A stretch of 64,000 bases of DNA from a bacterium. Its GTDB lineage: Bacteria > Patescibacteriota > Patescibacteriia > UBA9570. Positions within the stretch are counted from its first letter, which is position 1. Every line of letters starts with the position of its first letter. The DNA lies in assembly GCA_030698395.1 (NCBI GenBank), contig JAUYKW010000018.1:44726-108725 (forward strand), given 5' to 3'. This document shows positions 28,962-57,586 of this stretch, piece by piece. The notes beneath the pieces are model-generated. The model made no database searches and was not told the DNA's origin. It worked only from the letters and a program-made list of their open reading frames with translations. The translations under genes were made by a program, and so were the position numbers.

Positions 28962-30827
28962 ATGAATAAAAAAAAATATCAAGCTAAATTTGATGCTTTC
29001 ATAAAAAGGCATCCATTATTGTTACCAGTTATTGTTTCAGTTTTATGTGGATTGGTGTTATTAATTATTGCATTAAAATCTAGTGGTTCAGATTGGTTTT
29101 TTTCGGAGGTGTTAGCGGAGACAATCTATTCAGCAATTGTCTATCATCATGAGTTTCCATTTTTTTCTTACTTTCTAAATGGTGGAACACCTTTTATTCA
29201 AGATCCACAAGGGCCATTATTATCTATTAGTACGTTATGGATTTTGATATTTGGGCCTTGGGGTGGCTTAAGATTTGCCGCATTTTTTTGGGGATTTATC
29301 GGTACCTTTTCCTGCTGGGGGTGGCTAAGACCTAAATTAGGAAGTGGGCCAGCGTTAGTTTCTGCTACTGCCTGGATTTTGAGCATGGGTTTCTTTTGGC
29401 GTTTAGTAGTTGGTCACGATATGTTCTTGTGGCACTTAGCATTACCATTATTTTTAATAGTTATTGAAAAGTTAATATTTAAACCAACATGGAAGAATAG
29501 TATATTACTTGGATTGCTAACTGGATTATTTATCCTCGGACCATCATTACATTCACTTTTATATTTTATTATCCCAGCTGTAGTAATCTGGTACGTGGTG
29601 TTGTTGGTTGGTAATCACAAAAGAATAGCTATTAAGAATATATTTCTATTTTCAGCAATGGCTATTGTTATAGCATTAGCAATTGCATCACCAAAAGTTG
29701 CTGCATGGTCACGGCTAGATATGGTGAGAGAGACACAGAGTGAAAGTGCAATGTATTTAAAGGATGCTTTAATATCAATTGTTGACACTCAAGTTAGATC
29801 TGATCGTGGGTATTTGCTGGACGAGAAGTATGAGCGGGAAAGTTGGGGTATTTGGGAAAGTAATGTTGCCGCAACACCAATAATTCTTACATTAGCAATA
29901 TTAGCGCTTTTCATAGTAGCTTTCAAAAAAGAAAAACCAAATAGTTTGTTCATTTTTTCTATTACACTGTTTTTTGTAGGATTATTTATTGCGACAAACT
30001 CTTGGTTTTGGCAAGTATTTAGAGAATTATCGAATGGTAGTTTTAGGGTATCAGGCAGATTTTTAGGATTAGCTAATTTTTCAATAATTATCTTAGCGGG
30101 TATCGCAACAAAGTATTTGACAGGAATTGTCTCAAAAAAAATTCCTCATTTATCTGCAATTTTTATATTATCAACATTTGTTTTTAGTGCATTACTGATC
30201 TATCAAGCGAGCGTGACATTATCACCATATGTAAGTTCTGGAGGTAATATCCTTAAGCCAATCACAGCTATCTGGAATCATTCAAAAAAGAAAACTGACT
30301 CACCCATGTTAACAGGAGTAAATCATTATTATTATGATCAGGAGATAGAAGCAAATCAAATTAGTTCTGGTAACCTATATTTATTATATGGTCATAAAAT
30401 AATTGGAGATTCTGTTTCTGAAATACCTCTTGATGATTTTATGAAGATATTACCGAATAAAGATATAGAAATTCCAGTCTCACCAGAATTATCACCAGAT
30501 CGTTTAGAAGTATTTCATACTAAATTAGTGATTAGTAATTTACAGCCATTGGAAGAAGTAAACATCAGATTAAAGGTTGCACCATTAGGACAGGAAATTA
30601 TCACAGAACCTAGCGGGGCTAATATCACATTAGAGGAAAATGCAGGCACAATGACATTAATTAATAATGAGAATTACTTAATAGAAAAAATTACGATAAA
30701 ACCAAAGTCTCCTGTACCAGTAATAGCATGGATAGTGTCAATATTAACGTTAATAGCCTCTATAGGCTATCTAGTGGCCAAATCTGGAATTAGTGCTAGA
30801 ATAAGGTTTCAAAAAAATAAGGCATAA
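28962..30827 (+). CDS. Polytopic membrane protein (at least 10 TM) with a C-terminal extracytoplasmic domain; putative GT-C-fold glycosyltransferase
   Basis: It is 621 aa. The N-terminal two-thirds are multi-TM and a soluble C-terminal domain of about 180 aa ends in a final TM. It sits immediately upstream of a Dpm1-like GT2. It could not be assigned to a named family by eye. Confidence 0.45.
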   Translation: MNKKKYQAKFDAFIKRHPLLLPVIVSVLCGLVLLIIALKSSGSDWFFSEVLAETIYSAIVYHHEFPFFSYFLNGGTPFIQDPQGPLLSISTLWILIFGPWGGLRFAAFFWGFIGTFSCWGWLRPKLGSGPALVSATAWILSMGFFWRLVVGHDMFLWHLALPLFLIVIEKLIFKPTWKNSILLGLLTGLFILGPSLHSLLYFIIPAVVIWYVVLLVGNHKRIAIKNIFLFSAMAIVIALAIASPKVAAWSRLDMVRETQSESAMYLKDALISIVDTQVRSDRGYLLDEKYERESWGIWESNVAATPIILTLAILALFIVAFKKEKPNSLFIFSITLFFVGLFIATNSWFWQVFRELSNGSFRVSGRFLGLANFSIIILAGIATKYLTGIVSKKIPHLSAIFILSTFVFSALLIYQASVTLSPYVSSGGNILKPITAIWNHSKKKTDSPMLTGVNHYYYDQEIEANQISSGNLYLLYGHKIIGDSVSEIPLDDFMKILPNKDIEIPVSPELSPDRLEVFHTKLVISNLQPLEEVNIRLKVAPLGQEIITEPSGANITLEENAGTMTLINNENYLIEKITIKPKSPVPVIAWIVSILTLIASIGYLVAKSGISARIRFQKNKA

Positions 30828-30830
30828 TCT

Positions 30831-31592
30831 ATGGATATAAAAGTATCAGTAATACTTCCAACTTATAATGAAAAGGATAATATTGGAGATTTAGTATTGG
30901 CCATTGATAAGGAAGTTCAAGCTAGTAAAGAAATTATTGTGGTTGACGACGATTCTCCAGATGGGACGTCTCAAATAATTCAAAAGATGATCGATCAGCA
31001 TCAGGTGCTTAATTTAAGATTGATTACAAGAAAACAAGATAAGGGATTAACCAATAGTATTTGGGAAGGAATTCAGCAAGCACATGGTGAGATTGTGCTA
31101 TGGATGGATTGTGATTTTTCAATGCCTCCAAAAGATATACCTCGTTTATTAAAGAAAATTGATGAAGGTAATGATGTTGCAGTTGGTTCTCGTTTTGTGA
31201 AGGGTGGAAGCTTTAAAGAAGATACGTCAGATTCAGAAGATTCTTGGTTGGCAGTTGTGCTTAGTAGATTGATGAATGTATTTATTCGCATGATGTTAGG
31301 TAGAGATTTTAAGGATTATACGAGTGGTTTTATTGCTATTAAACGAAGCATCTTTGATAAGATAACTCTTACTGGAGATTATGGAGAATATTTTATAGAT
31401 TTGATTGTGCGAGCTAAATTATTCAATTTTAAAATTATTGAAATTCCATATACATGCTTACCCCGTGAAAAAGGTGAGTCTAAGACTGGTAGTAATTTAT
31501 CTGATTATATTAAGCGTGGCAGTAAATACGTTTGGGTGACTTTAAAGCTTTTTAAATTAAGGATGAAGTATAAGTTTTTTAGAATTGTGTAG
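30831..31592 (+). CDS. GT2 polyprenyl-phosphate glycosyltransferase (Dpm1/GtrB/ArnC-like)
   Basis: Motifs: VSVILPTYNEKDNI; VVDDDSPDGT (DxD region); LWMDCDFSMPP; VGSRF. Its 253-aa length is typical of dolichyl/undecaprenyl-phosphate sugar synthases. Confidence 0.8.
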   Translation: MDIKVSVILPTYNEKDNIGDLVLAIDKEVQASKEIIVVDDDSPDGTSQIIQKMIDQHQVLNLRLITRKQDKGLTNSIWEGIQQAHGEIVLWMDCDFSMPPKDIPRLLKKIDEGNDVAVGSRFVKGGSFKEDTSDSEDSWLAVVLSRLMNVFIRMMLGRDFKDYTSGFIAIKRSIFDKITLTGDYGEYFIDLIVRAKLFNFKIIEIPYTCLPREKGESKTGSNLSDYIKRGSKYVWVTLKLFKLRMKYKFFRIV

Positions 31593-31596
31593 GACT

Positions 31597-32181
31597 ATGG
31601 TTTTACCATTAAAAAAAGAAAGTATTTCAAAAGTAGTAGATCTTCATAAGCAAGTATTGGGACACACTCTAAACGCTAGAATAGGTTCATGGTTTTTAGA
31701 GAAATTATATGAAGAGACTATGCTAGCAAAAGAAAATGGTAGGTGCTTTGTCTCGTTTGAGGATGAAAAAGTTGTTGGCTTTGTTAGTATTTGTTTAGAT
31801 TATGAAGCTCTCAGTTCACGAATTATGAGTTCATTAACATTGGTACAAAAAATTAAGGTAAGCATTTTTATGGGAAGTCATTTTTGGTTAATACCAGATT
31901 TTTTCAAGAAGCAATTGTTCTCTAGATACATAAAAGCAAATATGCCACAGCCATATCCTATGGTATTAACAATTGGTGTAGATTCTAACCAACAGGGTAA
32001 TGGGATTGGTAAACAATTGATGCATGAGGTAAAAACTAGCTTTCGTAAGCATAATTTAACAGAATTTTATCTAGATACAGAAGAAACAAACGAACAGGCT
32101 ATCGGATTTTATAAGAAAATTGGTTTTGATGAGATTGCCAGGAAATACGGCAACGTAGTTTTGCAATATAAATTGAACTGA
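31597..32181 (+). CDS. GNAT-family N-acetyltransferase
   Basis: It has the acetyl-CoA binding motif QQGNGIGKQLMHEV in a GNAT fold. The C-terminus has EETNEQAIGFYKKIGF. Start is probably the Met at 31597. Confidence 0.7.
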   Translation: MVLPLKKESISKVVDLHKQVLGHTLNARIGSWFLEKLYEETMLAKENGRCFVSFEDEKVVGFVSICLDYEALSSRIMSSLTLVQKIKVSIFMGSHFWLIPDFFKKQLFSRYIKANMPQPYPMVLTIGVDSNQQGNGIGKQLMHEVKTSFRKHNLTEFYLDTEETNEQAIGFYKKIGFDEIARKYGNVVLQYKLN

Positions 32182-33440
32182 TGAGCATTGGTAAGAGAGA
32201 AATTAAAAAGGAGCATCTTCCGATTATAGTATTGGTTGCATTTAGTATCTTGGTGCAGTTAGCAATCTTGCCAAATTTTGGTTCTTTAGATACTAATGCA
32301 TTTATTAGAGTTGTTGATACAGTGGAGGCTTTTGGATTAAAACAAGGGTATGCAATTTATAATTTAGTGTATCCGCCACTAAGCTCCATCTTTGCATATG
32401 GTATTCATTTGATAATTCCGCTTTATTCTTTTATGCCTAAGCATCTACAGGTATTGGCTATAAAAGTGGGTTTGGCAATATTTCATTATGGTTTCCTAGC
32501 TTGTATATTATTGTTTCATAGAAAAAATAAAAAGTTATCTTGGTTCGCAGCAACAAAAGAAACAATTCCTATTTTATTGAACATTGCATTGATTGAGTCT
32601 ACGTTTATTATAGGATCATTTGATATTCTTTTGGCCATTCCGTTATTTTTTGCTTTTTATTTTGTATATAAGAAAAAGTTTTTTTGGTCTGGTTTTTTTC
32701 TCGCCACCGCTTTTTGTACTAAATTATTGCCGATTCTTTTAATTCCAGCTTTTTTAGTTTTCTTTTCATCGAAATTGTCGAAGGAAAAAATTACCCTTAA
32801 TTGGAGAGCGGTAAATTTATTTTTTCTGGGTATGTTAGTTGTAGTTGTACCTTTAGTGGCGTATTTTGGTTATCCGGAGATTAGAGAAATATTTGTAAAA
32901 TCATCAGTTCATAGTGATAAGTTGTCAGCGGCTTTTAATTTTAATAGAATAGTTCGTGAATTATTTATGCCGGAGAATATAACTACGCCGGCTATTTACT
33001 ATTTTGGTCGAGGAGTATTCTTTCTAACCTCAGCATTTTTACTAATAAGATTATGGATGAGTCCAAAGAATATTCAAAATCTACTATATACTAGCATTGG
33101 AATAATCATAACTTATTTTACTTTTCTTGCTGGCGTGCATCAGAATCATATTTTTCCGGCACTAATCTTTGCTATCCTCTTGGTGATGTATAACAAAAAT
33201 AGCATAAATATGTTTATTTATTATTCTATCACTGCAATAGCCTTTATAAATTGGTTCGCACCTTATGGGTTTGGATATTTTGAAACTGTTGAATATACCG
33301 GAATTAGATATTTGTGGCAGCTTCCAGTTACTACCATTGGTTTGATATATGCTTTGTTAAGCTTGCTTACTGTTTTCTTTTTTGGGGGATATATGTGGTT
33401 GGTGTTACGACCAAAATTCTTCAGGCAGACTGAGAAATAA
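32181..33440 (+). CDS. Polytopic membrane protein, putative GT-C-like mannosyltransferase family (DUF2029/GT87-like)
   Basis: It has about 11 TM helices across 419 aa and hydrophobic loops rich in aromatic residues. It lies in a glycosylation context. The family assignment is tentative. Confidence 0.4.
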   Translation: MSIGKREIKKEHLPIIVLVAFSILVQLAILPNFGSLDTNAFIRVVDTVEAFGLKQGYAIYNLVYPPLSSIFAYGIHLIIPLYSFMPKHLQVLAIKVGLAIFHYGFLACILLFHRKNKKLSWFAATKETIPILLNIALIESTFIIGSFDILLAIPLFFAFYFVYKKKFFWSGFFLATAFCTKLLPILLIPAFLVFFSSKLSKEKITLNWRAVNLFFLGMLVVVVPLVAYFGYPEIREIFVKSSVHSDKLSAAFNFNRIVRELFMPENITTPAIYYFGRGVFFLTSAFLLIRLWMSPKNIQNLLYTSIGIIITYFTFLAGVHQNHIFPALIFAILLVMYNKNSINMFIYYSITAIAFINWFAPYGFGYFETVEYTGIRYLWQLPVTTIGLIYALLSLLTVFFFGGYMWLVLRPKFFRQTEK

Positions 33441-34530
33441 GTTTCATTTGTTCACAAACATAATCAATCTGTTCATCTGTGATTGCTAGACCAGAAGGTA
33501 AATATAGGCCATGTTTTGCTATGTAATCCGTGTTGGGGTAGGATCCAATATCCCCGTAAGTATTTATTAGTACTGGCTGATCTGTTGGCGAGTAAAAGAA
33601 ATCTCTAGTATCAATATCTACTTCTTTTAGCTGTGTTCGGACTTCGTCTTTAGTTTTGCCAAATTCCTCTTCAATTAAAATTGCATACATCCAAAAAACA
33701 TTTTTATTTTTCGGAAGTGTGGTTGGCAACTTAATACCTGGAATATCTTTTAGTACGCTATTATACCTTTCTGCCATCTGATTCTTCTTTTCAATATATT
33801 CATCAATATGCTGAAGTTCCCCGCATCCTATTGCAGCTTGCATATTAGTCATTCTATAGTTATAGCCAACGTGTTCATGGATGAATCTTGTATCAGAGTG
33901 ATAGAGATCTTTTAATTTTCTAGCTTTTTCAGCAATTGCATCGTCATTTGTTACTACCATACCGCCTTCTCCAGTAGTGATTATTTTATTTCCATAAAAA
34001 CTAAAACATGCAATGTCGGACATGCTTCCACAAATTCTTCCTTTGTAGGTTGCACCATGAGCTTCAGCAGCATCTTCAATTACGATCAAATTATGTTTCT
34101 GGGCAATTTCTAATATTGGATCCATATCGCAGGAATGGCCATAGATATGAACGGGCATTATTGCTTTGGTATTTTTGGTAATTTTTTCTTCAAGTTTAGC
34201 TGGATCTAAATTATATGTTTCTAATTCACAATCTACAAAAACTGGTTTAGCCCCAGTGTACATTACTGCAAATATTGTTGCGATCATTGTAAACGCAGGT
34301 ACGATTACTTCATCTCCAGGTCCAATATTCATTGTGAGTAAGGCAGTGTGTAATGCTGTTGTTCCATTATTTGTAGTAATGGCGTGCTTAACACCAAGAT
34401 AAGATGCGAACTTGTTTTCGAATTCTTCTACAAATTTTCCAGCAGATGAGATCCAACCTGTTTCTACTGCTTCTAATATATTTTTTTTTGCTTCTTCTGA
34501 TATCAGCGGTTCATTAACGGGTACACGCAT
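33421..34530 (-). CDS. DegT/DnrJ/EryC1/StrS-family PLP-dependent sugar aminotransferase
   Basis: The N-terminal VNEPLISEEAKKNILEAVETGWIS is typical of this family. Further motifs are NNGTTALHTAL and the conserved lysine region SFYGNKIITTGEGG. Length 369 aa. It is compatible with a perosamine-synthase-like C4-aminotransferase or an FdtB-like C3-aminotransferase. Confidence 0.85.
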   Translation of the reverse strand: MRVPVNEPLISEEAKKNILEAVETGWISSAGKFVEEFENKFASYLGVKHAITTNNGTTALHTALLTMNIGPGDEVIVPAFTMIATIFAVMYTGAKPVFVDCELETYNLDPAKLEEKITKNTKAIMPVHIYGHSCDMDPILEIAQKHNLIVIEDAAEAHGATYKGRICGSMSDIACFSFYGNKIITTGEGGMVVTNDDAIAEKARKLKDLYHSDTRFIHEHVGYNYRMTNMQAAIGCGELQHIDEYIEKKNQMAERYNSVLKDIPGIKLPTTLPKNKNVFWMYAILIEEEFGKTKDEVRTQLKEVDIDTRDFFYSPTDQPVLINTYGDIGSYPNTDYIAKHGLYLPSGLAITDEQIDYVCEQMKLISQSA

Positions 34531-34533: not shown

Positions 34534-34950
34534 TTAATCCATAAATATTTTAGCTTTCTTATCTCCAGGATATGGGCCTTGTTTGATTTCAATGATTCTA
34601 CATTTACTTAACATTTTAAATGAATGACCGCCAGCAACGAATAGTGCAAAATCTCCTTTATTTAGTTTAACTTTTTTTAGTACGGTCCAATCATTGCGGT
34701 AAATAGTAGCTTCAACACTGCCCTTTTCAATGTAGAGAAATTCTTGAGTAGTGGATACATTGTATTTTAAGCTTGGATGTCGATGAGGTTTTACTTTGTG
34801 ACCTTTAGGATGTTCTAATAGACCAACTTGAAGCGGGTAATTTTGTGGAGTTAAAAAACGCACTCCATCAGCCTTCATGTCTGCGGAATAAATTAAGGCG
34901 TAGACTTTTTTCCCCTCTGTAATTTCGTTTACTGCTTTCATTTGATGCAA
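34534..34950 (-). CDS. Cupin-fold WxcM/FdtA-like sugar 3,4-ketoisomerase (putative)
   Basis: It is a 138-aa single cupin with a paired-His motif (KPHRHP) positioned like the catalytic HxH of FdtA. It lies directly downstream of, and is co-oriented with, the DegT aminotransferase. Confidence 0.5.
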   Translation of the reverse strand: MHQMKAVNEITEGKKVYALIYSADMKADGVRFLTPQNYPLQVGLLEHPKGHKVKPHRHPSLKYNVSTTQEFLYIEKGSVEATIYRNDWTVLKKVKLNKGDFALFVAGGHSFKMLSKCRIIEIKQGPYPGDKKAKIFMD

Positions 34951-48635: not shown

Positions 48636-48721
48636 AAATTGCCTACTATTTTCATTGTAGCTTTGTGTATGGTAACAGAACAATGATATGAGGACAATAT
48701 CATGGATACATTATCATTGCC

Positions 48722-51582: not shown

Positions 51583-52479
51583 TTATTGACCTGCCTTATA
51601 TATAGCGTATCGATCAGCTAACCAATTTTGGGGAGATTGTTTTTTTGGTTGGAGTTTAGCTAGCTCGGATAAGATAGATTCAATATTATATCCAAGGAGG
51701 GATAATTTTTCTGAGTCTAATGAACGTAGATATTTTTTTGCGTACTGTATACGTAAATTTGTATTGAATGTAGTTTTCCATTTTTCTAATGACTTATTCT
51801 GTACCTGTTTTTCTTTAGCTATATAGGGATCTCCCATGGTGCCATGAAGTTTTTCTTTTTGAATATTTTGGATCATATTTGAATTGAATGGTATTTCTAG
51901 ATAGTTACAAATCTTCTCTGTAACTTCGCTTGATTTTTCTACTAACTCTTCATATTTAATTAATATACTTTTTTCTTTCAGCAATTCATATCCATCACTC
52001 AGGAGATGTGGACCTTCATACAGATCTGTATTTGAAGGTTTTACATTTAATTTACCAAAGTTCCATGTTTCAATCACTGAAGCTAATGTTGCCAAAGGAT
52101 TTCTGCCTAAAAAAATAAATTTTGCCTCAGGAAATAATTTTGCTATTTCTGGAATAATAAAATAGTAACGAGGAGTTTTATCAAGAAAATATTTTTCATT
52201 GTCACAAGCTGAACTATATATGTCAGTGACAAATTCTTTTAATGACTTATCATAAGAAAACATTTTTTTTGGAAGTTCTGAAAAAAAATCTTGTAGCGCT
52301 TGACGACAAACTTCCTTATCGTAATCTACTGTTAGATCATTTTGTTTTTTTGGATATAGGAGTGGTAACAATATCCATGGTTCAGATACAGAACAAATTT
52401 CTGGATGAGACATTAATATTTTCTGCAGTAAAGTTGAACCAGAACGAGGTGTGGAAAAGAGGAAGATTAAATTATCCAT
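51583..52479 (-). CDS. Sulfotransferase (Sulfotransfer_3-type, PAPS-dependent)
   Basis: Motifs: 5'-PSB loop FLFSTPRSGSTLLQKIL; 3'-PB region FIFLGRNPLATLASV. Length 298 aa. Confidence 0.7.
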   Translation of the reverse strand: MDNLIFLFSTPRSGSTLLQKILMSHPEICSVSEPWILLPLLYPKKQNDLTVDYDKEVCRQALQDFFSELPKKMFSYDKSLKEFVTDIYSSACDNEKYFLDKTPRYYFIIPEIAKLFPEAKFIFLGRNPLATLASVIETWNFGKLNVKPSNTDLYEGPHLLSDGYELLKEKSILIKYEELVEKSSEVTEKICNYLEIPFNSNMIQNIQKEKLHGTMGDPYIAKEKQVQNKSLEKWKTTFNTNLRIQYAKKYLRSLDSEKLSLLGYNIESILSELAKLQPKKQSPQNWLADRYAIYKAGQ

Positions 52480-53491
52480 TTTTTCTAATTAATTTGCTAT
52501 AAGCTAGAGCTAACATATCTTGAAGTTGAGTTTTTTTACAAGAAATTATTCTTCGACGTAAATCATTTGGTATTACTTGCTGAATATCATCTTGCTCATT
52601 TAATTCTTGTATTTCAGCAACATAATCTTTATTTTTTTCGTAGAGTATATCAGCGTATTCTGTTCTATCAGATAGCTTTGGATTATTATGTTCCTCAGGC
52701 CACTTTAAAAGTTGTTCTTGCAATTTAAAATAAAGTTTAACTTTTTCACTAGTTCGTAAACCATTAGTCCCAATTGGATGCCATGGGTGTGCCGTGTATG
52801 TGTCTGTAAGTACAGCTCCTTTGCTGTTAGCGGCCATTTCCAATCTGATACTGACATCTTCTCCAATTTTGGATAGAGAAGTACTCCAAAGAGGATTAGT
52901 GTCATATCCTTCTATTATATCCCAATACTTTCTTGCCGCGGATATCATTGGTCCAAAATTTCGGCGGGGTGGAAATAATTCAGGTTGTCTATATTTTGTT
53001 GGGCAAGTTGCTAGCACAGATGCTAGATCGTTGTTAGCATTTTGCCATTCCTTAAAGGATGCCCCAGCTGGGTATTGAGCCATTCTACGAAACGCATTAA
53101 ATACTTTGTACTTTCCTTGTTGATGATGCTTTGTTAGCACAGTTAGAAAGTCTTTAGGTAGAAGTTGATCTCCATCCATTACTGAAATTATATCGCCTTG
53201 AGATGCCGCTATGCCAGCATTATTACATTTTGATAAGTGATAAGCTTCAGTATTAACATTCTCGTCCAAATAAATTATCTTGATATTCATTTGGTCTTTA
53301 ACTTCTTTATGGCGATCGAACAGCGATTTTAATCCCTTTTTGTGATTATACTTATCGGCAAATTCACGGCTTCTTTGTTCAACATAAATAAGTTCAAAAT
53401 TATTCCTAGGGAAATCTTGATTTAGTAGACCATTAATTAGATGAAAAAAATTACGATAACTCGAGTCCCAACTAATGATAGAGTGTAACAT
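52472..53491 (-). CDS. GT-A-fold glycosyltransferase-like protein (GT2-related)
   Basis: It has ISVMDGDQLLP (DxD-like) after a Rossmann-like N-terminus. Length 339 aa. No close named family was recognised. Confidence 0.5.
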   Translation of the reverse strand: MLHSIISWDSSYRNFFHLINGLLNQDFPRNNFELIYVEQRSREFADKYNHKKGLKSLFDRHKEVKDQMNIKIIYLDENVNTEAYHLSKCNNAGIAASQGDIISVMDGDQLLPKDFLTVLTKHHQQGKYKVFNAFRRMAQYPAGASFKEWQNANNDLASVLATCPTKYRQPELFPPRRNFGPMISAARKYWDIIEGYDTNPLWSTSLSKIGEDVSIRLEMAANSKGAVLTDTYTAHPWHPIGTNGLRTSEKVKLYFKLQEQLLKWPEEHNNPKLSDRTEYADILYEKNKDYVAEIQELNEQDDIQQVIPNDLRRRIISCKKTQLQDMLALAYSKLIRKNG

Positions 53492-53495: not shown

Positions 53496-54467
53496 TTATT
53501 TTATATCAGTCAACCAAGCTCTTACAAGTTTGATTTCGTCGTTGGATACAAATCCATTTTTATGAAGAGCAGTGTAAACAATTTCTAAGTTTTTCAATAA
53601 ATCTTTACCTAGTTTTATATTTTGAAGTAATTCAATGATTGGTTTAGTGTTTTGATATACTTCAACTTCATCAGCAAAATCTTTCATTAAGTTGTGAGCA
53701 TTTCTTTCTTGGTAAACAGTTGCCTCAGTAAAACCTAAATGCATGCCATGTAGCCACATAATATGTTGTGCCAGATAACCTCTTAGAATATCAGTAAATC
53801 TAAAACTAACAGTTGCGGGGAGATATAATAATGGAAATGCTTTTTTTTGCCAGAAAGTATTTTGCGAATTAAACGGACAGTAACACTTTTTTGGTAAATG
53901 AATACTTTTTTTTCGATCGAATTTGGTAGTGTCGTTAAAGACTAAGCGATAAATGGCATCAACATCTGGATCTGTATCAGCTAAACCTTGCCATGCTCCA
54001 ATACTAGTTAATTTAGAATGTTGTTTTAACTTGCTCTTATTTTTTGTTTGAATGAGGTCTAACGGGTATCCTCGTGGCCAAATTAATTTCTTTGAAAAGT
54101 AATTGTATACATTATAATATTTGTCTTTTGTCTCTATACTTCTTTTGCTAGTAAAATCTGGACACTTCCAATGTTTGTATGGCAGATTGTCGTCATCTGT
54201 ATCATAGATAATATCTGCTCCTTGACGCATTGCATAAATATACCCGATGTTTTTTCTAGTATAGTGGTTATAAGGACTGTAGCGAACAAATTCGTAGCCT
54301 AGTTTTTTTTGATCTTGAACTGAAAGGAAGGTTAAGTTTTTTGAACTTTTAATTTGTGGAGTTTTTTTATCTCCAACAAGAACAACGTGCCAATCTGGAA
54401 TTTTTTCAAAAGCTTTTACCGCTTTAGTTCTGTCGTTAATGCTAGTTATGACTATGAATTTTTTCAT
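53496..54467 (-). CDS. GT75/RGP-like (DUF288/STELLO-like) protein; possible nucleotide-sugar mutase or glycosyltransferase
   Basis: It has KFIVITSINDRT...WHVVLVGDKKTPQI...RKNIGYIYAMRQGADIIYDTDDDNLPY. This parallels the RGP/UDP-arabinopyranose-mutase pattern (IV.T.R......W......H.I.V.DGD....I...........R..GY........YI...DDDC.P). Confidence 0.45.
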   Translation of the reverse strand: MKKFIVITSINDRTKAVKAFEKIPDWHVVLVGDKKTPQIKSSKNLTFLSVQDQKKLGYEFVRYSPYNHYTRKNIGYIYAMRQGADIIYDTDDDNLPYKHWKCPDFTSKRSIETKDKYYNVYNYFSKKLIWPRGYPLDLIQTKNKSKLKQHSKLTSIGAWQGLADTDPDVDAIYRLVFNDTTKFDRKKSIHLPKKCYCPFNSQNTFWQKKAFPLLYLPATVSFRFTDILRGYLAQHIMWLHGMHLGFTEATVYQERNAHNLMKDFADEVEVYQNTKPIIELLQNIKLGKDLLKNLEIVYTALHKNGFVSNDEIKLVRAWLTDIK

Positions 54468-55675
54468 GATAGTTGCGTAATTTTATAATCAGTTGGAGGA
54501 CAAGATCCTAAGACATCTCTGCGCGACACAATAAAAGGATCAATTACACTAGTTGGTTGCATTTCAAAGAATAATAATTGTGGACGGTAAAAAATTCCTG
54601 TATCAAGCAGTCCCAGCCCTAAGCTAATGCTGTAATTTCCGGGTGGAAGATTTGTATCTTCAGCAGAAATTTCAAGTTTATGTTTTCCTTTAGGAATGGC
54701 ATCTATTTTTGCTGTAACTGTCATGATGCGTGCTAACTGACTGTTAAATATTTGGATACCAACTCTAATATTATTGAGTTCTTTATCGGTGTTATTAGTT
54801 ACTAGCAACTCTGTAATCAGAGGCTTGCTGTACTGCATTTGGGACAATCTAATTTGTTCAATAGTAAAGTTTTTGATTTTTGTATCAAACGGACCAGTTC
54901 CTGATTCTTGAGAATTTGTCAGGCGTAGATATTCTTGAACAGCTTTGTCTGTATCTGCGATCGTTACAATTTTTCCTTGATTCAGCACAACGCATGATTT
55001 ACATAAGCTTTGAATTGCTCCCATATTGTGGCTAACAAAAATGATAGTGCGACCATCTTCTTTTGTTACTTCATCCATTTTGCCAAGGCACTTTTTTTGA
55101 AACTGGGTATCACCAACAGCTAGTACTTCATCTACTAAAAGAATCTCTGGTTCTAGATGGGCAGCTACAGCAAATGCTAAACGCACGCGCATCCCACTAG
55201 AATATCTTTTTACTGGGGTGTCTAAGAATTTTTCTACTTCTGCGAATTCAACAATTTCATCAAACTTTTTTGAGATTTCTCTTTTTGTCATGCCCAATAC
55301 AGCTCCATTTAGAAATACATTTTCTCGGCCAGTTAATTCTGGATGAAATCCAGTGCCAACTTCCAATAAGCTAGCAACTCTGCCACGTAAAGTTATTTTA
55401 CCAGTGGTTGGTGATGTGATGCGGGACAATACTTTTAATAGGGTACTTTTACCAGCTCCGTTACTACCGATTAATCCTATTACTTCACCTTTCTCTATAG
55501 AAAAATTTATATCTTTAAGTGCCCAGAATGTTTCTCGATGGGATTCTTTGTTTGTGAACCATTTTTTTGGATTTAAAGATTTAGCAATTACATCACGTAA
55601 AGCTACATAGGGTTCCATTTCCCCTAGTTGATATTGTTTTGAAATATTTTCAGCTAGAATTACAGGTTTGGACAT
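54464..55675 (-). CDS. wzt: ABC exporter ATP-binding protein, Wzt/TagH type, with a C-terminal substrate-binding beta-domain
   Basis: Motifs: Walker A GSNGAGKST; signature SSGMRVRLAFAVA; Walker B LLVDEVLAVGD. An extra non-ATPase domain of about 150 aa follows, as in O-antigen Wzt proteins. Confidence 0.85.
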   Translation of the reverse strand: MSKPVILAENISKQYQLGEMEPYVALRDVIAKSLNPKKWFTNKESHRETFWALKDINFSIEKGEVIGLIGSNGAGKSTLLKVLSRITSPTTGKITLRGRVASLLEVGTGFHPELTGRENVFLNGAVLGMTKREISKKFDEIVEFAEVEKFLDTPVKRYSSGMRVRLAFAVAAHLEPEILLVDEVLAVGDTQFQKKCLGKMDEVTKEDGRTIIFVSHNMGAIQSLCKSCVVLNQGKIVTIADTDKAVQEYLRLTNSQESGTGPFDTKIKNFTIEQIRLSQMQYSKPLITELLVTNNTDKELNNIRVGIQIFNSQLARIMTVTAKIDAIPKGKHKLEISAEDTNLPPGNYSISLGLGLLDTGIFYRPQLLFFEMQPTSVIDPFIVSRRDVLGSCPPTDYKITQLS

Positions 55676-55679
55676 AATT

Positions 55680-56501
55680 TTATACTACATCTGCGAACTT
55701 TTGTTCGGTTTTACGGAAATAAAATAAGCCTACAATAAATAACAATATTGAAATACCTATAGACATGGCTAGACTTTCTAGATTAATTGGCGTATTTCCA
55801 ATAATGATGGCACGAGCGTTTTCAATTACACCAGACATTGGATTAAGATTTAGAATCCATTGGTATTTCTCGCCAGCAATTTTTGCGGGATAAATTACGG
55901 GTGTTAAAAAAAGTAGCATTTGAATAAAAAACGGAATAATATATCGGACATCACGATATTTTACATTTACTGCTGATAGAAATAATCCCATACCTAAACT
56001 AGTGAAGTAGGTAATGAGAATCAATATTGGAATAAGAAATAGACTAATTGGTTTAGGGACGAATTGATAATAAAACATCATGGCACAGAGGATGGAGCTG
56101 GCAATTAAGAAATCAATAAAAGCAACAATTACTGTTGATGATGGTAATATTAATCTTGGAAAATAGATTTTTTTGATCATCTCTTGATCAGATACTAAGC
56201 TACCGCTAGCACTTGATAGTGCTTGTGAGAAAAAGAGCCAGAAAACTAAACCAACATAAACAAATATTGGATATGGAGCACCGCTAGAATCTATTTGAGC
56301 TAGGTTTCCAAAAAAGACTGTAAAAATTACCATACTTATGATAGGTACAAAAAAAGCCCACAATATTCCAATGGCTGTTTGTTTGTATCTTACTTTTACA
56401 TCTCTAAGTGCAAGAAAGTAAAAGAGATCTTTATATTGGAGCATTTCCCGGAAGTCTATCCGTAGCCAGCTACGTTTTGGTAGGATAATTGTTTCTTTCA
56501 T
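55680..56501 (-). CDS. wzm: ABC-2 exporter permease, Wzm/TagG type
   Basis: It is 273 aa with six TM helices. The N-terminus (ETIILPKRSWLRIDFREMLQYKDLFYFLALRDVKVRYKQTAIGILWAF) is typical of polysaccharide ABC-2 permeases. It is immediately upstream of wzt. Confidence 0.85.
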   Translation of the reverse strand: MKETIILPKRSWLRIDFREMLQYKDLFYFLALRDVKVRYKQTAIGILWAFFVPIISMVIFTVFFGNLAQIDSSGAPYPIFVYVGLVFWLFFSQALSSASGSLVSDQEMIKKIYFPRLILPSSTVIVAFIDFLIASSILCAMMFYYQFVPKPISLFLIPILILITYFTSLGMGLFLSAVNVKYRDVRYIIPFFIQMLLFLTPVIYPAKIAGEKYQWILNLNPMSGVIENARAIIIGNTPINLESLAMSIGISILLFIVGLFYFRKTEQKFADVV

Positions 56502-56575
56502 TTACGAAGAATATTTATAATTGAGCAGGCATACTCTACTATTTTTAAGGGTATAAGTCAACAAGTTTTATTAGT

Positions 56576-57586
56576 CTATGCTTTTTCCAGAAATACAATA
56601 AAGCTCTCTCCTTTGCCGGCTTTATCGCGTATCCGCCATGCTGGAATGGTGAAGTAACTATTCAATAATGCTAGAACTCTCAAACTGAATTCTTTGAAAC
56701 TTAAGTATTTAATATATTCTAATGTATTCATGTTCTTAGGACGCGGTTGCCAGATGGTTTCTTTGTTTCCCAGTGATACTCGTTCTTTTTTATTGGTAAG
56801 ATATTGTAATGCAACCCAACCCATTGGAGTGGTAGTTTCGGATTTAAGAACTTTGAATCCAGTTTCTTTAGCCAGAACATTTATACTTTTTTGTGAAAAA
56901 AAATTTACGTGATATGGAATGTGCCAGTTAATCCATTTTTTTTCGGTTCGCTTTGCATTTGCACTTTCTATATTTGGTGTACTAAGAATTATTTTACCAC
57001 CAACCTTTAATTTTTTTGATATTTTGATTAAAAAATCTTTAGGATCAGGTATATGTTCTATTAACTGACTCATTGTGATGAAATCAAAGAAATCATCAGG
57101 GTAAGGCATTGTGTCTATGTCGCCAAAATGTATTTCTAAATTTAGTTCGTCTGCAATTGGTTTTATATTTTTATCTAGTTCTGTTCCGTATGCATCACCA
57201 CCAAGTTTAGTAATTTCTAAAAGAGATACTCCGTTTCCGCAACCTATATCCAAAACTTTGCTACCAGCAGTTATATAACTATGACATTTATTTTTTTCTC
57301 CTTGTAGATTGTTTTTGTCGCTATTTGGTTTTCTAGAGAAATTATCAGCAGTTGCTTTTACATCATCAGCAGTCATTGCTTTTCTGGGATAATAATCTGT
57401 ATAAATACTTTCTAATACTTCACTAGATGGAATTGGGTTAATTTCAGCAAAGTTACATGATGAACATTTATTCACTGAGTATTGTTCAGGGTATCCATAA
57501 CGATCATCATGCATTTCATTGTACAGGAGTGTCGTCGGAGATTTGCATATTTTGCAGTATAATACTGCATTTTCTTCACTTAGCAT
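56576..57586 (-). CDS. Class I SAM-dependent methyltransferase with an N-terminal Cys4 zinc-ribbon
   Basis: The N-terminus has CKICKS...CSSCNF. Motif I is VLDIGCGNGVSLLEI. Length 336 aa. It is co-oriented with wzm-wzt. Confidence 0.7.
   Translation of the reverse strand: MLSEENAVLYCKICKSPTTLLYNEMHDDRYGYPEQYSVNKCSSCNFAEINPIPSSEVLESIYTDYYPRKAMTADDVKATADNFSRKPNSDKNNLQGEKNKCHSYITAGSKVLDIGCGNGVSLLEITKLGGDAYGTELDKNIKPIADELNLEIHFGDIDTMPYPDDFFDFITMSQLIEHIPDPKDFLIKISKKLKVGGKIILSTPNIESANAKRTEKKWINWHIPYHVNFFSQKSINVLAKETGFKVLKSETTTPMGWVALQYLTNKKERVSLGNKETIWQPRPKNMNTLEYIKYLSFKEFSLRVLALLNSYFTIPAWRIRDKAGKGESFIVFLEKA

What the first reader, a model, noticed from the sequence alone, without database searches (positions are those of the whole stretch)
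28962..57586. Very large (about 28.6 kb, about 29 genes) surface-glycan locus combining Wzm/Wzt export, Gmd/Fcl, amino-sugar enzymes, 12 glycosyltransferases, sulfation and methylation
For a gene-dense, apparently reduced genome, nearly half of this window is devoted to one glycan pathway. The precursor enzymes are GDP-mannose 4,6-dehydratase, GDP-fucose synthase, DegT aminotransferase, an FdtA-like cupin, GNAT and a UDP-sugar 4-epimerase. Polymerisation enzymes are 5 GT2, 3 GT4 and 4 GT-C-like membrane transferases, an RGP/DUF288-like protein and a GT-A-like protein. Decoration enzymes are 2 sulfotransferases, an FkbM methyltransferase and further SAM methyltransferases. Export is by Wzm/Wzt, with the Wzt C-terminal binding domain. 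No Wzx/Wzy, WbaP/WecA-like initiating phosphotransferase or ligase is visible in the window. This implies an ABC-transporter-dependent polymer made on a polyprenyl carrier and further glycosylated outside the membrane. The product would be a sulfated, methylated, fucose- and aminosugar-containing heteropolysaccharide or protein glycan. That combination is not a described bacterial system to my knowledge.
Basis: partly seen in the sequence, partly recalled or inferred. Interest (0 to 1): 0.75.

Follow-up and report, generated by a model that had tools for sequence, protein, structure and literature searches.

The report
Composite surface-glycan gene island in CPR bacterium
Nearly half of this window really is a 29-gene sugar-polymer locus in an uncultivated Patescibacteria-type bacterium, but it is assembled from well-known modules (ABC exporter, lipid-sugar/GT-C decoration, fucose synthesis, sulfation), so it is an interesting new example rather than a new kind of system.

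Summary
Window 28962-57586 carries 29 tightly packed genes (97.9% coding), nearly all glycan-related. HMMs confirm Gmd, Fcl, DegT, GNAT, GalE-like epimerase, GT2s, three GT4s, GT87, GtrA, DUF2304, two sulfotransferases with intact PAPS motifs, FkbM, STELLO/DUF288, Wzm and Wzt.

- **GT-C proteins:** two membrane proteins without Pfam hits (621 and 659 aa) are GT-C by predicted fold. The 522-aa one is unproven.
- **Corrections:** the cupin is WbuC-like, not FdtA-like. One methyltransferase looks like an RNA methyltransferase. The Wzt C-terminal domain is only weakly supported.
- **Separate conservation patterns:** a core is shared with Kerfeldbacteria-like relatives (PpgS-like GT2-DUF2304-Gmd-Fcl-GT2-GT4, cupin-DegT, GtrA, 522 aa, GT-C 659, GT2, MTase_23). 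The 9-kb block 47463-56501 (Wzm/Wzt, STELLO, both sulfotransferases, FkbM, two GT4) is absent from the stretches of those relatives that I could read. It interrupts a gene trio that is adjacent in them.
- **Precedents:** the logic matches mycobacterial arabinogalactan assembly and three-component O-antigen decoration. Wzm/Wzt plus sulfotransferase loci also occur in Tamlana, Anaerolineae and cyanobacteria.

No initiating transferase, ligase or PAPS genes are in the window. I rate it a new member of a known kind, of moderate interest.

The parts
28962..30827 (+). 621-aa polytopic membrane protein with a GT-C fold. It belongs to an orphan family of 8 known members, including 2 paralogues in the same MAG. 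It starts 3 nt after ychF.
30831..31592 (+). GT2 glycosyltransferase
   Evidence: PF00535, 115 bits
31585..32181 (+). GNAT N-acetyltransferase, a candidate amino-sugar N-acetylase
   Evidence: PF00583, 62.9 bits. No NCBIfam equivalog reached its cut-off.
32181..33440 (+). GT87-family GT-C glycosyltransferase, dependent on a polyprenyl-P-sugar donor
   Evidence: PF09594, 43.1 bits, gathering cut-off 25. About 10 hydrophobic segments.
33421..34530 (-). DegT/DnrJ/EryC1 sugar aminotransferase, nearest to the LegC/PseC types
   Evidence: PF01041, 429 bits. LegC 360 bits and PseC 280 bits, both below cut-off. 67-69% identical in L083 and L084.
34534..34950 (-). Small cupin, WbuC-like rather than FdtA-like
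   Evidence: Cupin_2, 17.7 bits. TIGR04366 WbuC, 33.5 bits, below the 42 cut-off. 65-67% identical in L083 and L084.
35074..35496 (+). GtrA-family small membrane protein, a putative lipid-linked-sugar flippase
   Evidence: PF04138, 98 bits. 65% identical in L084.
35497..36636 (-). SAM methyltransferase of the UPF0020/Trm11-Trm14 (RNA m2G) type. It is probably a passenger gene, not glycan-related, and has no homologue in the relatives' loci.
   Evidence: PF01170, 46 bits, and PF01555, 43 bits. TIGR01177, 75 bits, below the 316 cut-off. No hit in L083 or L084.
36612..37550 (-). NAD-dependent sugar epimerase/dehydratase, nearest to GalE
   Evidence: PF01370, 201 bits. TIGR01179 GalE, 200.6 bits, below the 262 cut-off.
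37583..37831 (-). 82-aa protein with two transmembrane segments, conserved partner of the 522-aa protein
   Evidence: ORF. Shared motif TTLLGDPYYED with the 81-aa ORF that follows the 519-aa homologue in L084.
37815..39383 (-). 522-aa polytopic membrane protein of a small orphan family. It may be GT-C-like or a Wzy/EpsG-like polymerase; this is undecided.
   Evidence: No Pfam hit. 40 representatives among 1.84 billion proteins. Invariant D36 after TM1. Of 32 members, 2 hit PMT_2 (6.9e-5) and 2 hit EpsG (1.6e-4). 40% identical in L084.
39644..40306 (+). GT2 polyprenyl-phosphate sugar synthase, PpgS/AglJ/GtrB-like
   Evidence: PF00535, 95.5 bits. PpgS 117.7 bits and AglJ 107 bits, both below cut-off. 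60% identical in L084.
40291..40650 (+). DUF2304 small membrane protein, translationally overlapped with the GT2 upstream. By my recollection this is the Rv3632-type partner of PpgS.
   Evidence: PF10066, 55.5 bits. 62% identical in L084. Role of Rv3632 with PpgS: PMC9671496.
40661..41710 (+). GDP-mannose 4,6-dehydratase (Gmd)
   Evidence: TIGR01472, 577 bits, above the 415 cut-off. 81% identical in L084.
41712..42641 (+). GDP-L-fucose synthase (Fcl)
   Evidence: NF047922, 511.7 bits, above the 500 cut-off
42644..43414 (+). GT2 glycosyltransferase
   Evidence: PF00535, 108 bits. 53-54% identical in L083 and L084.
43415..44578 (+). GT4 glycosyltransferase
   Evidence: PF00534 and PF13439
44575..46554 (-). 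659-aa GT-C-fold membrane glycosyltransferase. It belongs to an orphan family of 18 members, including Kerfeldbacteria; some members are fused to a GT8 domain.
   Evidence: No Pfam hit. Family. Invariant WPTPDEY loop after TM1. AF2 model pLDDT 83. Foldseek: ArnT 5f15 at E 6e-5, then STT3, ALG12, PglB, AftB, Pmt4.
46587..47450 (-). GT2 glycosyltransferase, part of the conserved trio with GT-C 659 and MTase_23
   Evidence: PF00535, 69 bits. Homologues lie next to the GT-C in L083, L089 and L090.
47463..48683 (-). GT4 glycosyltransferase, first gene of the variable 9-kb block
   Evidence: PF00534, 100 bits. No homologue in L083, L084 or L089.
48722..49573 (+). Sulfotransfer_2-family sulfotransferase. 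The true start is probably the ATG about 21 codons in.
   Evidence: PF03567, 35.6 bits, gathering cut-off 22. Motifs HIRKTGGTS (5'-PSB) and RDPLERVVS (3'-PB). Called as 262 aa in L001.
49576..50316 (+). FkbM-family methyltransferase
   Evidence: PF05050, 53 bits. TIGR01444, 64 bits, above the 37.7 cut-off.
50320..51570 (+). GT4 glycosyltransferase
   Evidence: PF00534, 105.8 bits
51583..52479 (-). Sulfotransfer_3-family sulfotransferase. Its nearest relatives are outside the CPR.
   Evidence: PF13469, 108.6 bits. Motifs PRSGST and RNPLATLAS. More than 3690 homologues, the best about 50% identical, in Deferribacter, Flexistipes and Bacteroidota. The N-terminal half matches NoeE at 84 bits, far below the 500 cut-off.
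52472..53491 (-). Weak GT2 / GT-A-like protein
   Evidence: PF00535, 31.9 bits, gathering cut-off 23.3
53496..54467 (-). STELLO/DUF288-like putative glycosyltransferase with a DTDDD motif
   Evidence: PF03385, 54 bits, partial match. Sequence. No relative found in JGI metagenomes with the single-protein scan.
54464..55675 (-). Wzt ATPase of the glycan ABC exporter, with a divergent C-terminal extension of about 150 aa
   Evidence: PF00005. PDB 8dku/7k2t (full-length A. aeolicus Wzt), 235 bits, aligned over residues 43-354. TagH and galactan Wzt models. Wzt_C 21.9 bits, below the 30.4 gathering cut-off. The C-terminus alone gives no PDB hit.
55680..56501 (-). Wzm ABC-2 permease
   Evidence: PF01061, 68 bits. 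Galactan_ABC_perm, 70.7 bits, sub-cut-off. 49-59% identical to Wzm of Parcubacteria, Saccharibacteria and Berkelbacteria MAGs.
56576..57586 (-). Class-I SAM methyltransferase (Methyltransf_23) with an N-terminal Cys4 motif. It is a core gene that heads the Wzm/Wzt operon.
   Evidence: PF13489, 87.9 bits. 48% identical homologue directly next to the GT-C in L083, and a 225-bit homologue in L089.

Best explanation
This is a cell-envelope glycan island of an uncultivated Patescibacteria (CPR) bacterium related to Kerfeldbacteria. It is built from two known kinds of machinery that most likely act in sequence on one polyprenyl-linked glycan.

**Step 1 (family assignments shown; activities not tested).** Nucleotide sugars are made in the cytoplasm. 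Gmd and Fcl give GDP-L-fucose. The epimerase, DegT, WbuC-like cupin and GNAT give an N-acetylated amino-(dideoxy)hexose.

**Step 2 (inferred).** GT2, GT4 and STELLO-like transferases build a chain on a polyprenyl diphosphate carrier. The initiating enzyme is encoded elsewhere. Two PAPS-type sulfotransferases, an FkbM methyltransferase and a class-I methyltransferase modify the chain. One of these modifications may form the chain-end cap.

**Step 3 (components shown, substrate inferred).** Wzm/Wzt exports the lipid-linked polymer.

**Step 4 (components shown).** A PpgS-like GT2 with its DUF2304 partner charges polyprenyl phosphate with a sugar, and GtrA flips it. Three or four GT-C enzymes (GT87, the 621-aa and 659-aa orphans, perhaps the 522-aa protein) add residues outside the membrane.

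**Evolution.** The GT-C/fucose core is lineage-conserved. The 9-kb block 47463-56501 (Wzm/Wzt, STELLO, sulfotransferases, FkbM, GT4) is a variable cassette. It sits inside a MTase_23-GT2-GT-C gene trio that is otherwise adjacent.
For: **Family assignments.**

**GT-C folds.**

**PAPS motifs.** Present in both sulfotransferases.

**Wzt and Wzm.** Wzt matches full-length A. aeolicus Wzt. Both subunits match TagH and the mycobacterial galactan exporter models.

**Operon structure.**
- Overlapping or near-abutting genes within eight same-strand blocks.
- One block reads MTase_23-Wzm-Wzt-STELLO-GT2-sulfotransferase, with gaps of -8 to 74 nt.

**Conserved core in relatives.** Identities to the window proteins:
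- Gmd 81%.
- DegT 67-69%.
- GtrA 65%.
- GT2-DUF2304 60-62%.
- GT-C 659 38-41%.
- 522-aa protein 40%.

**Variable cassette.**
- The cassette genes have no homologues in L083, L084 or L089.
- MTase_23, GT2 and GT-C are adjacent there.
- The sulfotransferase's nearest homologues are non-CPR.

**Other CPR genomes.** Other CPR Wzm/Wzt loci also pair the exporter with large membrane transferases or ligases.

**Assembly.** Junctions are confirmed by independent contigs.

**Precedents for each module.** PMC11127046, PMC9671496, PMC13018209, PMC8205485.
Against: - No initiating phosphoglycosyltransferase, ligase (Wzy_C, LCP) or PAPS-synthesis gene is in the 64-kb window. A complete pathway is therefore not demonstrated.
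- Only 22-kb stretches of the relatives' contigs could be read. 'Cassette absent' could mean 'located elsewhere'.
- No insertion scars or repeats mark the cassette borders, and its GC content is not distinct.
- The Wzt C-terminal domain is only weakly related to known carbohydrate-binding domains.
- Nothing shows that the GT-C enzymes and the exporter act on the same molecule.
- Sugar identities and sulfation or methylation sites are inference.
- Affiliation to CPR rests on the homologues' names, not on a phylogeny.
Confidence: 0.5

Rival explanations
1. Two or more independent glycoconjugate systems merely sit side by side. The conserved GT-C/PpgS-like/GtrA core would glycosylate proteins (S-layer, pilins) or peptidoglycan-bound structures directly from polyprenyl-P-sugars, in the manner of PMT or YfhO. 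The Wzm/Wzt cassette would make a separate sulfated, methylated polymer.
For: - The core and the cassette have separate conservation patterns.
- Homologues of GT-C 659 also occur alone among non-glycan genes in Kerfeldbacteria (L082).
- A paralogue of GT-C 621 sits alone next to pgi.
- The closest structural matches include the protein-modifying GT-Cs STT3, PglB and Pmt.
Against: - MTase_23, a core gene, heads the Wzm/Wzt operon, 74 nt upstream of Wzm.
- The core itself contains several cytoplasmic GT2 and GT4 enzymes, which need an exporter for their product.
- The window has no second flippase of the Wzx type.
Confidence: 0.3
2. One reading: the whole 28.6 kb is one dedicated, co-evolved pathway producing one sulfated, methylated fucose/aminosugar heteropolysaccharide of a kind not seen before.
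For: - Tight packing, with 97.9% of the span coding.
- Nearly all 29 genes are glycan-related.
- No strong terminators were found.
Against: - The arms of the locus vary among relatives while the core is kept.
- At least one gene, the 35497-36636 RNA-methyltransferase-like protein, is probably unrelated.
- The promoter and terminator scans were at chance level and therefore uninformative.
- Each module has described counterparts, and the exporter-plus-sulfotransferase combination recurs elsewhere (PMC8205485).
Confidence: 0.15
3. The sulfation part is non-functional or acts on something other than the glycan. A reduced CPR genome may have no PAPS supply, so the sulfotransferases would be relics of horizontal transfer or would modify lipids or small molecules.
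For: - No PAPS genes are in the window. In contrast, the Deferribacter locus with the closest homologue carries APS kinase, CysD/N-like and CysQ genes in the locus.
- The nearest homologues are non-CPR.
- In A. salmonicida a sulfotransferase-domain gene lies next to wzt, yet the known O antigen has no sulfate (PMC4483657).
Against: - Both proteins keep intact 5'-PSB and 3'-PB motifs and full-length reading frames.
- They are embedded in, and translationally coupled to, glycosyltransferase genes (8-nt overlap at 52472-52479).
- Only 64 kb of the genome could be inspected.
Confidence: 0.15

Closest known systems
Mycobacterial/corynebacterial arabinogalactan assembly. Cytoplasmic galactan is made on decaprenyl-PP, exported by Wzm-Wzt, then extended outside by GT-C arabinosyltransferases. 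The PpgS + Rv3632 to Rv3779 route adds GalN.
   Same: - An ABC-2 exporter. The window's Wzm and Wzt hit the galactan-exporter NCBIfam models.
- Several GT-C enzymes. AftD and AftA are top structural matches of the 621-aa protein, and a GT87 is present.
- A PpgS-like GT2 paired with a small membrane partner (PMC9671496).
- A monoderm-type envelope with peptidoglycan genes nearby.
   Different: - All matches to the mycobacterial equivalog models fall far below their cut-offs.
- There is no GlfT-type polymerase, no Araf donor pathway and no LCP ligase in the window.
- Fucose and amino-sugar supply, two sulfotransferases and FkbM have no counterpart in arabinogalactan synthesis.
- The Wzt here has a C-terminal extension that the mycobacterial Wzt lacks (chain lengths 260-263 aa).
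ABC-transporter-dependent O-antigen systems with a capped chain end recognised by the Wzt carbohydrate-binding domain (E. coli O9a WbdD, K. pneumoniae O12 WbbB, A. aeolicus Wzm-Wzt). Also three-component extracytoplasmic decoration of such O antigens (Citrobacter youngae O1/O2, GT136; PMC11127046).
   Same: - Wzm/Wzt with an extended Wzt. The best PDB match is full-length A. aeolicus Wzt.
- Methyltransferases are encoded beside the exporter.
- A polyprenyl-P-sugar synthase, a flippase and a GT-C are present for decoration after export.
   Different: - The organism has no evident outer membrane or LPS pathway, and no WaaL.
- The carbohydrate-binding domain is very divergent.
- The flippase is GtrA-type, not MATE.
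- No cap enzyme can be assigned.
- Sulfotransferases are not part of any characterised system of this type. This statement rests on my own knowledge and on the literature searches.
S-layer glycan (slg) clusters of Gram-positive bacteria such as Geobacillus stearothermophilus NRS 2004/3a. These have Wzm/Wzt export, an O-methylated chain cap and a Wzy_C-type O-oligosaccharyltransferase (from my own knowledge).
   Same: - A monoderm context with Wzm/Wzt and methyltransferases.
- Other CPR Wzm/Wzt loci carry a Wzy_C+TPR protein next to the exporter (L004 and L017), which fits this model.
   Different: - The window itself has no Wzy_C protein.
- It has no rhamnose pathway.
- It has an extra GT-C module and sulfation.
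Sulfated polysaccharide clusters of cyanobacteria (synechan xss cluster; predicted ABC-type clusters with sulfotransferases; PMC8205485), and Nod-factor fucose sulfation by NoeE.
   Same: - Pfam sulfotransferase families PF13469 and PF03567 sit inside a polysaccharide cluster.
- Several of the nearest Wzt relatives are cyanobacterial.
- The N-terminal half of the Sulfotransfer_3 protein resembles NoeE.
- GDP-fucose synthesis and methyltransferases are co-encoded.
   Different: - Synechan uses Wzx/Wzy, not an ABC exporter.
- The NoeE similarity is remote (84 bits against a 500 cut-off).
- No PAPS genes or regulators are in the window.
- The host is a CPR bacterium.
Uncharacterised genomic look-alikes. 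Tamlana sp. 2_MG-2023 (L057) has Gmd-Fcl-Wzm-Wzt-sulfotransferase-GT2-GT4. An Anaerolineae MAG (L079) has Wzm, Wzt, Sulfotransfer_3 and GT2.
   Same: The exporter family is the same (45-61% identity). A Pfam-verified sulfotransferase lies directly downstream, and in Tamlana Gmd/Fcl lie upstream.
   Different: - There is no GT-C/PpgS-like/GtrA core.
- The sulfotransferase subfamilies differ.
- None has been studied experimentally.

Membership tests
ABC-transporter-dependent (Wzm/Wzt) glycan export pathway | ABC-2 type integral membrane permease (Wzm) | tested here: met
   PF01061, 68 bits, above the 26.9 gathering cut-off. About 6 transmembrane segments. 49-59% identical to Wzm proteins next to related Wzt.
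ABC-transporter-dependent (Wzm/Wzt) glycan export pathway | Wzt/TagH-type nucleotide-binding subunit | tested here: met
   PDB 8dku/7k2t at 235 bits, 6amx at 227 bits, TarH/TagH at 165-190 bits. NCBIfam TagH and galactan Wzt models are the best hits but below their equivalog cut-offs.
ABC-transporter-dependent (Wzm/Wzt) glycan export pathway | C-terminal carbohydrate-binding domain on Wzt that reads a chain-end cap | tested here: inconclusive
   - A C-terminal extension of about 150 aa exists.
- Pfam Wzt_C scores 21.9 bits, below the 30.4 gathering cut-off.
- The full-length alignment to A. aeolicus Wzt runs to residue 354.
- The C-terminus alone has no PDB sequence hit.
- Only one of the 80 related Wzt proteins shares it.
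ABC-transporter-dependent (Wzm/Wzt) glycan export pathway | Initiating polyprenyl-phosphate phosphoglycosyltransferase (WecA/MraY-type PF00953 or WbaP-type PF02397) | tested here: not met
   None was found among the ORFs of 100 aa or more scanned across the 64-kb window. The rest of the genome could not be searched.
ABC-transporter-dependent (Wzm/Wzt) glycan export pathway | Ligase that attaches the exported glycan (WaaL/Wzy_C, LCP or O-OTase) | tested here: not met
   No PF04932 or PF03816 hit in the window. Related CPR loci L004 and L017 do carry Wzy_C+TPR proteins.
Three-component extracytoplasmic glycosylation (GtrB-like synthase / flippase / GT-C; PpgS-Rv3632-Rv3779 type) | GT2 polyprenyl-phosphate sugar synthase | tested here: met
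   The 39644-40306 protein scores PF00535 at 95.5 bits. Its best NCBIfam hits are PpgS (117.7 bits), AglJ (107 bits) and dolichyl-P hexose transferase, all below equivalog cut-offs. The family type is met; the substrate is unknown.
Three-component extracytoplasmic glycosylation (GtrB-like synthase / flippase / GT-C; PpgS-Rv3632-Rv3779 type) | Small membrane partner or flippase (DUF2304 and GtrA) | tested here: met
   PF10066, 55.5 bits; the gene overlaps the GT2 by 16 nt. PF04138 GtrA, 98 bits.
Three-component extracytoplasmic glycosylation (GtrB-like synthase / flippase / GT-C; PpgS-Rv3632-Rv3779 type) | GT-C fold transferase with an acidic residue in the first outside loop | tested here: met
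   - GT87 by Pfam, 43 bits.
- 659-aa protein: Foldseek hit to ArnT at E 6e-5, and an invariant D44-E45 after TM1.
GT-C superfamily (522-aa protein 37815-39383) | Sequence or fold match to a GT-C family | tested here: inconclusive
   - The protein itself has no Pfam hit.
- Of 32 relatives, 2 hit PMT_2 (6.9e-5) and 2 hit EpsG (1.6e-4).
- hhalign against the 659-aa family gave 2.6% probability.
PAPS-dependent carbohydrate sulfotransferases | Sulfotransferase domain with 5'-phosphosulfate and 3'-phosphate binding motifs | tested here: met
   PF13469 at 108.6 bits and PF03567 at 35.6 bits, both above their gathering cut-offs. Motif pairs PRSGST/RNPLATLAS and RKTGGTS/RDPLERVVS were read from the sequences.
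PAPS-dependent carbohydrate sulfotransferases | A PAPS supply (ATP sulfurylase and APS kinase) in the same organism | not testable with these tools
   None is in the window. The MAG is not among the searchable GTDB representative genomes. Only scattered contigs were reachable.
GDP-L-fucose de novo pathway | Gmd and Fcl equivalogs | tested here: met
   TIGR01472, 577 bits, above 415. NF047922, 511.7 bits, above 500.
   The only hits are Cupin_2 at 17.7 bits (below its gathering cut-off) and the WbuC cupin at 33.5 bits (below 42).

The most novel reading that the evidence does not exclude
In this CPR bacterium sulfation, perhaps of a methylated fucose made by the NoeE-like enzyme, is the chain-terminating signal read by the unusually divergent Wzt C-terminal domain. 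The exported sulfated polymer is then elaborated outside the cell by three CPR-restricted orphan GT-C families. The result would be a sulfated surface glycan that mediates attachment to a host cell. It would be a sulfate-capped ABC-transporter pathway with no characterised precedent. It would also operate in a reduced genome that may have to import or scavenge PAPS.
Probability: 0.12. Interest if true: 0.65.

Novelty: new member of a known kind. Interest (0 to 1): 0.35.

Why it matters
Patescibacteria (CPR) live attached to other cells, and their surface chemistry is essentially unknown. A locus that takes 45% of a 64-kb window suggests heavy investment in a surface glycan.

Three points are useful:

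1. It gives a concrete, testable gene set for a fucose- and aminosugar-containing, possibly sulfated and methylated envelope glycan. Sulfated bacterial polysaccharides are described as scarce outside cyanobacteria (PMC8205485).
2. It defines two, perhaps three, small orphan families of GT-C-fold transferases (8, 18 and about 40 known members) that current HMM libraries miss.
3. It shows a conserved core with variable arms, the pattern expected of a surface antigen under diversifying selection.

None of this requires a new mechanism. Every module has a described counterpart.

Tried and rejected
- **Promoter and terminator scans** over the locus gave counts at or below shuffled expectation. They say nothing about operon borders.
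- **Repeat search** around the variable block found only short AT-rich chance matches and no insertion scars.
- **GC profile** shows no distinct composition for the cassette.
- **PDB sequence searches** with the three orphan membrane proteins and their family profiles found nothing.
- **hhalign** between the three orphan families found no relationship.
- **STELLO-like protein against JGI metagenomes:** no relative found.
- **Organism identification via GTDB representatives** failed. The best Wzt hits were only 42-65% identical and spread over many phyla. The label comes from NCBI names of homologues.
- **Look-ups of P0001 and P0142** were not on record. The paralogue P0140 context was uninformative.
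- **The afdb50 fold library** was unavailable.
- **Wzt C-terminal domain alone** gave no PDB match.
- **Assembly chimera as an explanation for the cassette** was rejected, because independent Logan contigs cover both junctions.
- **tRNA and Rfam scans** of the window were empty.
- **Literature searches** for sulfotransferase or Wzt in Patescibacteria/Saccharibacteria returned nothing relevant.

Full report
**What is there**

Window 28962-57586 holds 29 open reading frames. This count includes an 82-aa two-transmembrane gene at 37583-37831 that the 90-aa ORF list missed. The genes cover 97.9% of the 28,625 bp and are arranged in eight same-strand blocks. Most intra-block gaps run from -25 to +32 nt.

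The flanks are housekeeping genes. On the left are SHMT and YchF; YchF ends 3 nt before the first locus gene. On the right are S6, SSB, S18, EF-P, pyruvate kinase and PPDK. Independent Logan assemblies of run SRR13727534 reproduce three junctions, so the arrangement is not an assembly artefact:
- YchF | first gene;
- S6 | MTase_23 | Wzm;
- Wzm through to the 659-aa gene.

**Gene identities**

- Gmd and Fcl pass NCBI equivalog cut-offs (577 bits against 415; 511.7 against 500).
- DegT scores 429 bits and is nearest to the LegC/PseC types, but below their cut-offs.
- A GNAT and a GalE-like epimerase are present.
- Four clear GT2, one weak GT2/GT-A and three GT4 are present.
- A GT87 (a GT-C family) scores 43 bits.
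- GtrA (98 bits) and DUF2304 are present.
- A Sulfotransfer_2 (35.6 bits, gathering cut-off 22) and a Sulfotransfer_3 (108.6 bits) are present.
- FkbM, a partial STELLO/DUF288 match (54 bits), an ABC-2 permease, a Wzt-type ATPase and a Methyltransf_23 enzyme complete the list.

Both sulfotransferases keep the two PAPS-binding motifs: PRSGST with RNPLATLAS, and RKTGGTS with RDPLERVVS.

The GT2 at 39644 is most like polyprenyl-phosphate sugar synthases (PpgS 117.7 bits, AglJ 107 bits). It overlaps the DUF2304 gene by 16 nt.

**The three membrane proteins without Pfam hits**

- **659-aa protein.** It belongs to a family of only 18 proteins, including Candidatus Kerfeldbacteria entries. Some members are fused to a GT8 domain. 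Its alignment has an invariant WPTPDEY loop right after TM1. An AlphaFold model (pLDDT 83) matches ArnT (E 6e-5), STT3, ALG12, PglB, AftB and Pmt4.
- **522-aa protein.** Its family has about 40 representatives among 1.84 billion proteins and an invariant Asp after TM1. Only 2 of 32 members touch PMT_2 and 2 touch EpsG. It may be GT-C-like or polymerase-like; I could not decide.

The three families are unrelated by profile-profile comparison. So three GT-C enzymes are established and a fourth is possible.

- The cupin is WbuC-like (33.5 bits, below the 42 cut-off), not FdtA-like.
- The 35497-36636 methyltransferase is of the UPF0020/Trm11-Trm14 RNA-methyltransferase type. It has no counterpart in related loci, so it is probably a passenger.
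- The Wzt C-terminal extension of about 150 aa is real, but only weakly like known Wzt carbohydrate-binding domains:
  - Pfam Wzt_C scores 21.9 bits against a gathering cut-off of 30.4.
  - The full-length alignment to A. aeolicus Wzt reaches residue 354.
  - The domain alone has no PDB match.
  - Only one of the 80 related Wzt proteins shares it.

**What is missing**

No WecA/WbaP-type initiator, Wzx/Wzy, Wzy_C ligase, LCP ligase or PAPS-synthesis gene is present anywhere in the 64 kb. The rest of the genome could not be searched. The MAG (NCBI locus tags Q8P90_03360 and Q8P90_03445, labelled only 'bacterium') is not among the GTDB representatives.

**Organism**

The orphan GT-C families are shared with Candidatus Kerfeldbacteria, which belongs to the Patescibacteria/Parcubacteria group. 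GC content is about 34% and the genes are densely packed. A CPR affiliation is likely but rests on homologue names, not on a phylogeny.

**Conservation: a core and a variable block**

Two Logan contigs (L083, L084) and JGI contigs (L088-L090) carry homologues of the 659-aa GT-C.

L084 reproduces the following, with identities to the window proteins:
- the PpgS-like GT2-DUF2304-Gmd-Fcl-GT2-GT4 run, in the same order (54-81% for the first five; the GT4 is 26%);
- the divergent 522-aa gene with its small partner (40%);
- cupin-DegT (67-69%);
- GtrA (65%);
- a distant 621-aa homologue (27%).

In L083 and L089 the homologues of MTase_23, GT2 (46587) and GT-C 659 are adjacent; L090 retains the GT2 next to the GT-C. 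In the window the trio is split by 47463-56501, a block of nine genes and 9.0 kb: GT4, Sulfotransfer_2, FkbM, GT4, Sulfotransfer_3, weak GT2, STELLO, Wzt and Wzm. None of these nine genes has a homologue in the readable parts of L083, L084 or L089.

The Sulfotransfer_3 protein belongs to a very large family (more than 3690 hits). Its closest members, about 50% identical, are in Deferribacter, Flexistipes and Bacteroidota, not in CPR.

I therefore read the block as a variable cassette within a lineage-conserved core. Three caveats apply:
- only about 22 kb of each relative could be seen;
- no insertion scars were found;
- the cassette has no distinct GC content.

The left arm (GT2, GNAT, GT87) is also not conserved in the relatives.

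**How it most likely works**

The parts fit a two-stage scheme.

- **Stage one.** It takes place in the cytoplasm:
  - GT2, GT4 and STELLO-like enzymes assemble a chain on a polyprenyl diphosphate carrier, using GDP-fucose and an N-acetylated amino sugar.
  - Methyltransferases and sulfotransferases modify the chain.
  - Wzm/Wzt exports it.
- **Stage two.** It completes the glycan outside the membrane:
  - The PpgS-like GT2 with DUF2304 makes a polyprenyl-phosphate sugar.
  - GtrA flips it.
  - The GT-C enzymes add residues outside the membrane.

The components are shown by family assignment. The order of steps, the substrates and the common acceptor are inference.

One physical link argues for integration. 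MTase_23, a core gene, now heads the operon MTase_23-Wzm-Wzt-STELLO-GT2-Sulfotransfer_3. The core's own cytoplasmic GT2 and GT4 enzymes also need an exporter for their product.

The main rival is that the GT-C core modifies proteins or wall structures independently of the exported polymer. Supporting this, GT-C 659 homologues and a GT-C 621 paralogue also occur alone.

**Comparison with known systems**

- **Arabinogalactan.** The scheme matches mycobacterial/corynebacterial arabinogalactan assembly: Wzm-Wzt galactan export (PMC13018209), then GT-C extension, with PpgS and Rv3632 feeding the GT-C Rv3779 (PMC9671496).
- **Three-component decoration.** It also matches the three-component decoration of ABC-exported O antigens (PMC11127046).
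- **Sulfotransferases in ABC-type clusters.** They were reported from cyanobacterial genome surveys. The same paper calls sulfated polysaccharides 'scarcely known in other bacteria' (PMC8205485).
- **A. salmonicida.** It has a sulfotransferase-domain gene next to wzt without a known sulfated product (PMC4483657).
- **The 80 nearest Wzt loci.**
  - Gmd or Fcl accompany the exporter in 29-34 of them.
  - Pfam-verified sulfotransferases do so in at least three: Tamlana sp. with Gmd-Fcl-Wzm-Wzt-sulfotransferase-GT2-GT4, an Anaerolineae MAG and a Flavobacteriaceae MAG.
- **Other CPR Wzm/Wzt loci.** They pair the exporter with a large membrane protein:
  - Wzy_C+TPR in a Parcubacteria MAG and a Saccharibacteria MAG;
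  - PMT_2 in another Patescibacteria MAG;
  - DUF6541 in a Berkelbacteria MAG.

Exporter plus membrane transferase or ligase is therefore a recurrent CPR layout.

**Verdict**

The locus is a new, uncharacterised member of known kinds of glycan machinery.

Its distinctive points are:
- its size relative to a small genome;
- the co-occurrence of sulfation and methylation with ABC export in a CPR bacterium;
- two, perhaps three, orphan GT-C families.

It does not call for a new mechanism. I found no literature on CPR glycan sulfation, so experimental follow-up would be new ground. My interest score is 0.35.

Noticed in passing
window 5700-7100: An island of higher GC (0.44-0.45, against 0.34-0.37 around it). 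It contains a 383-aa ORF (5836-6987, +) with overlapping ORFs on both strands. It has no Pfam, PHROG or Rfam match, even at E<=1. Its origin is unexplained.
   Followed up: partly
L086 (Flexistipes sinusarabici DSM 4947, CP002858 385268-406236), locus 10001-20049: Three Sulfotransfer_3 genes are interleaved with GT2 genes. They lie directly beside a PglB/STT3-type oligosaccharyltransferase and a Bac_transf initiating transferase. This is a candidate sulfated N-linked protein glycan locus in a cultured bacterium.
   Followed up: no
L085 (Deferribacter thermophilus, JAPNXM010000010.1), locus 2728-10969: The closest homologue of the window's Sulfotransfer_3 sits in a Wzx/EpsG-type polysaccharide locus. 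That locus carries its own PAPS supply: two APS kinase genes, a PAPS_reduct-fold (CysD-like) gene, a CysN-like GTPase and a CysQ-like phosphatase. The window has no PAPS genes.
   Followed up: no
L004 5210-7420(-), L017 3272-5524(-): Parcubacteria and Saccharibacteria MAGs carry a protein of about 740 aa with a Wzy_C (O-antigen ligase) domain and TPR repeats next to Wzm/Wzt; in L004 it is divergently transcribed from wzm. This suggests an ABC-dependent glycan is ligated to a surface acceptor in these CPR lineages.
   Followed up: partly
window 18331-19985 (-): A second ABC-2 permease plus ATPase pair lies next to glutamate racemase and MurD. It could be another envelope-polymer or drug exporter. 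It was not examined.
   Followed up: no
window 24930-26534 (+): An ELP3-like radical-SAM plus GNAT protein. By my recollection this family is uncommon in bacteria.
   Followed up: no
P0004, P0005, P0012 (homologues of window 44575-46554): Some members of the orphan GT-C 659 family are about 955-961 aa long. Two of the 16 family members scanned carry a Glyco_transf_8 (GT8) domain, and P0005 carries this annotation. These would be fusions of a Leloir transferase domain with a GT-C domain.
   Followed up: no
window 22894-24258 (-): A 454-aa protein with no Pfam hit. It has an N-terminal transmembrane segment, a repetitive (D/N)GDL-type central region and a C-terminal polytopic membrane part. Its gene overlaps the phosphohexomutase gene.
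   Followed up: no
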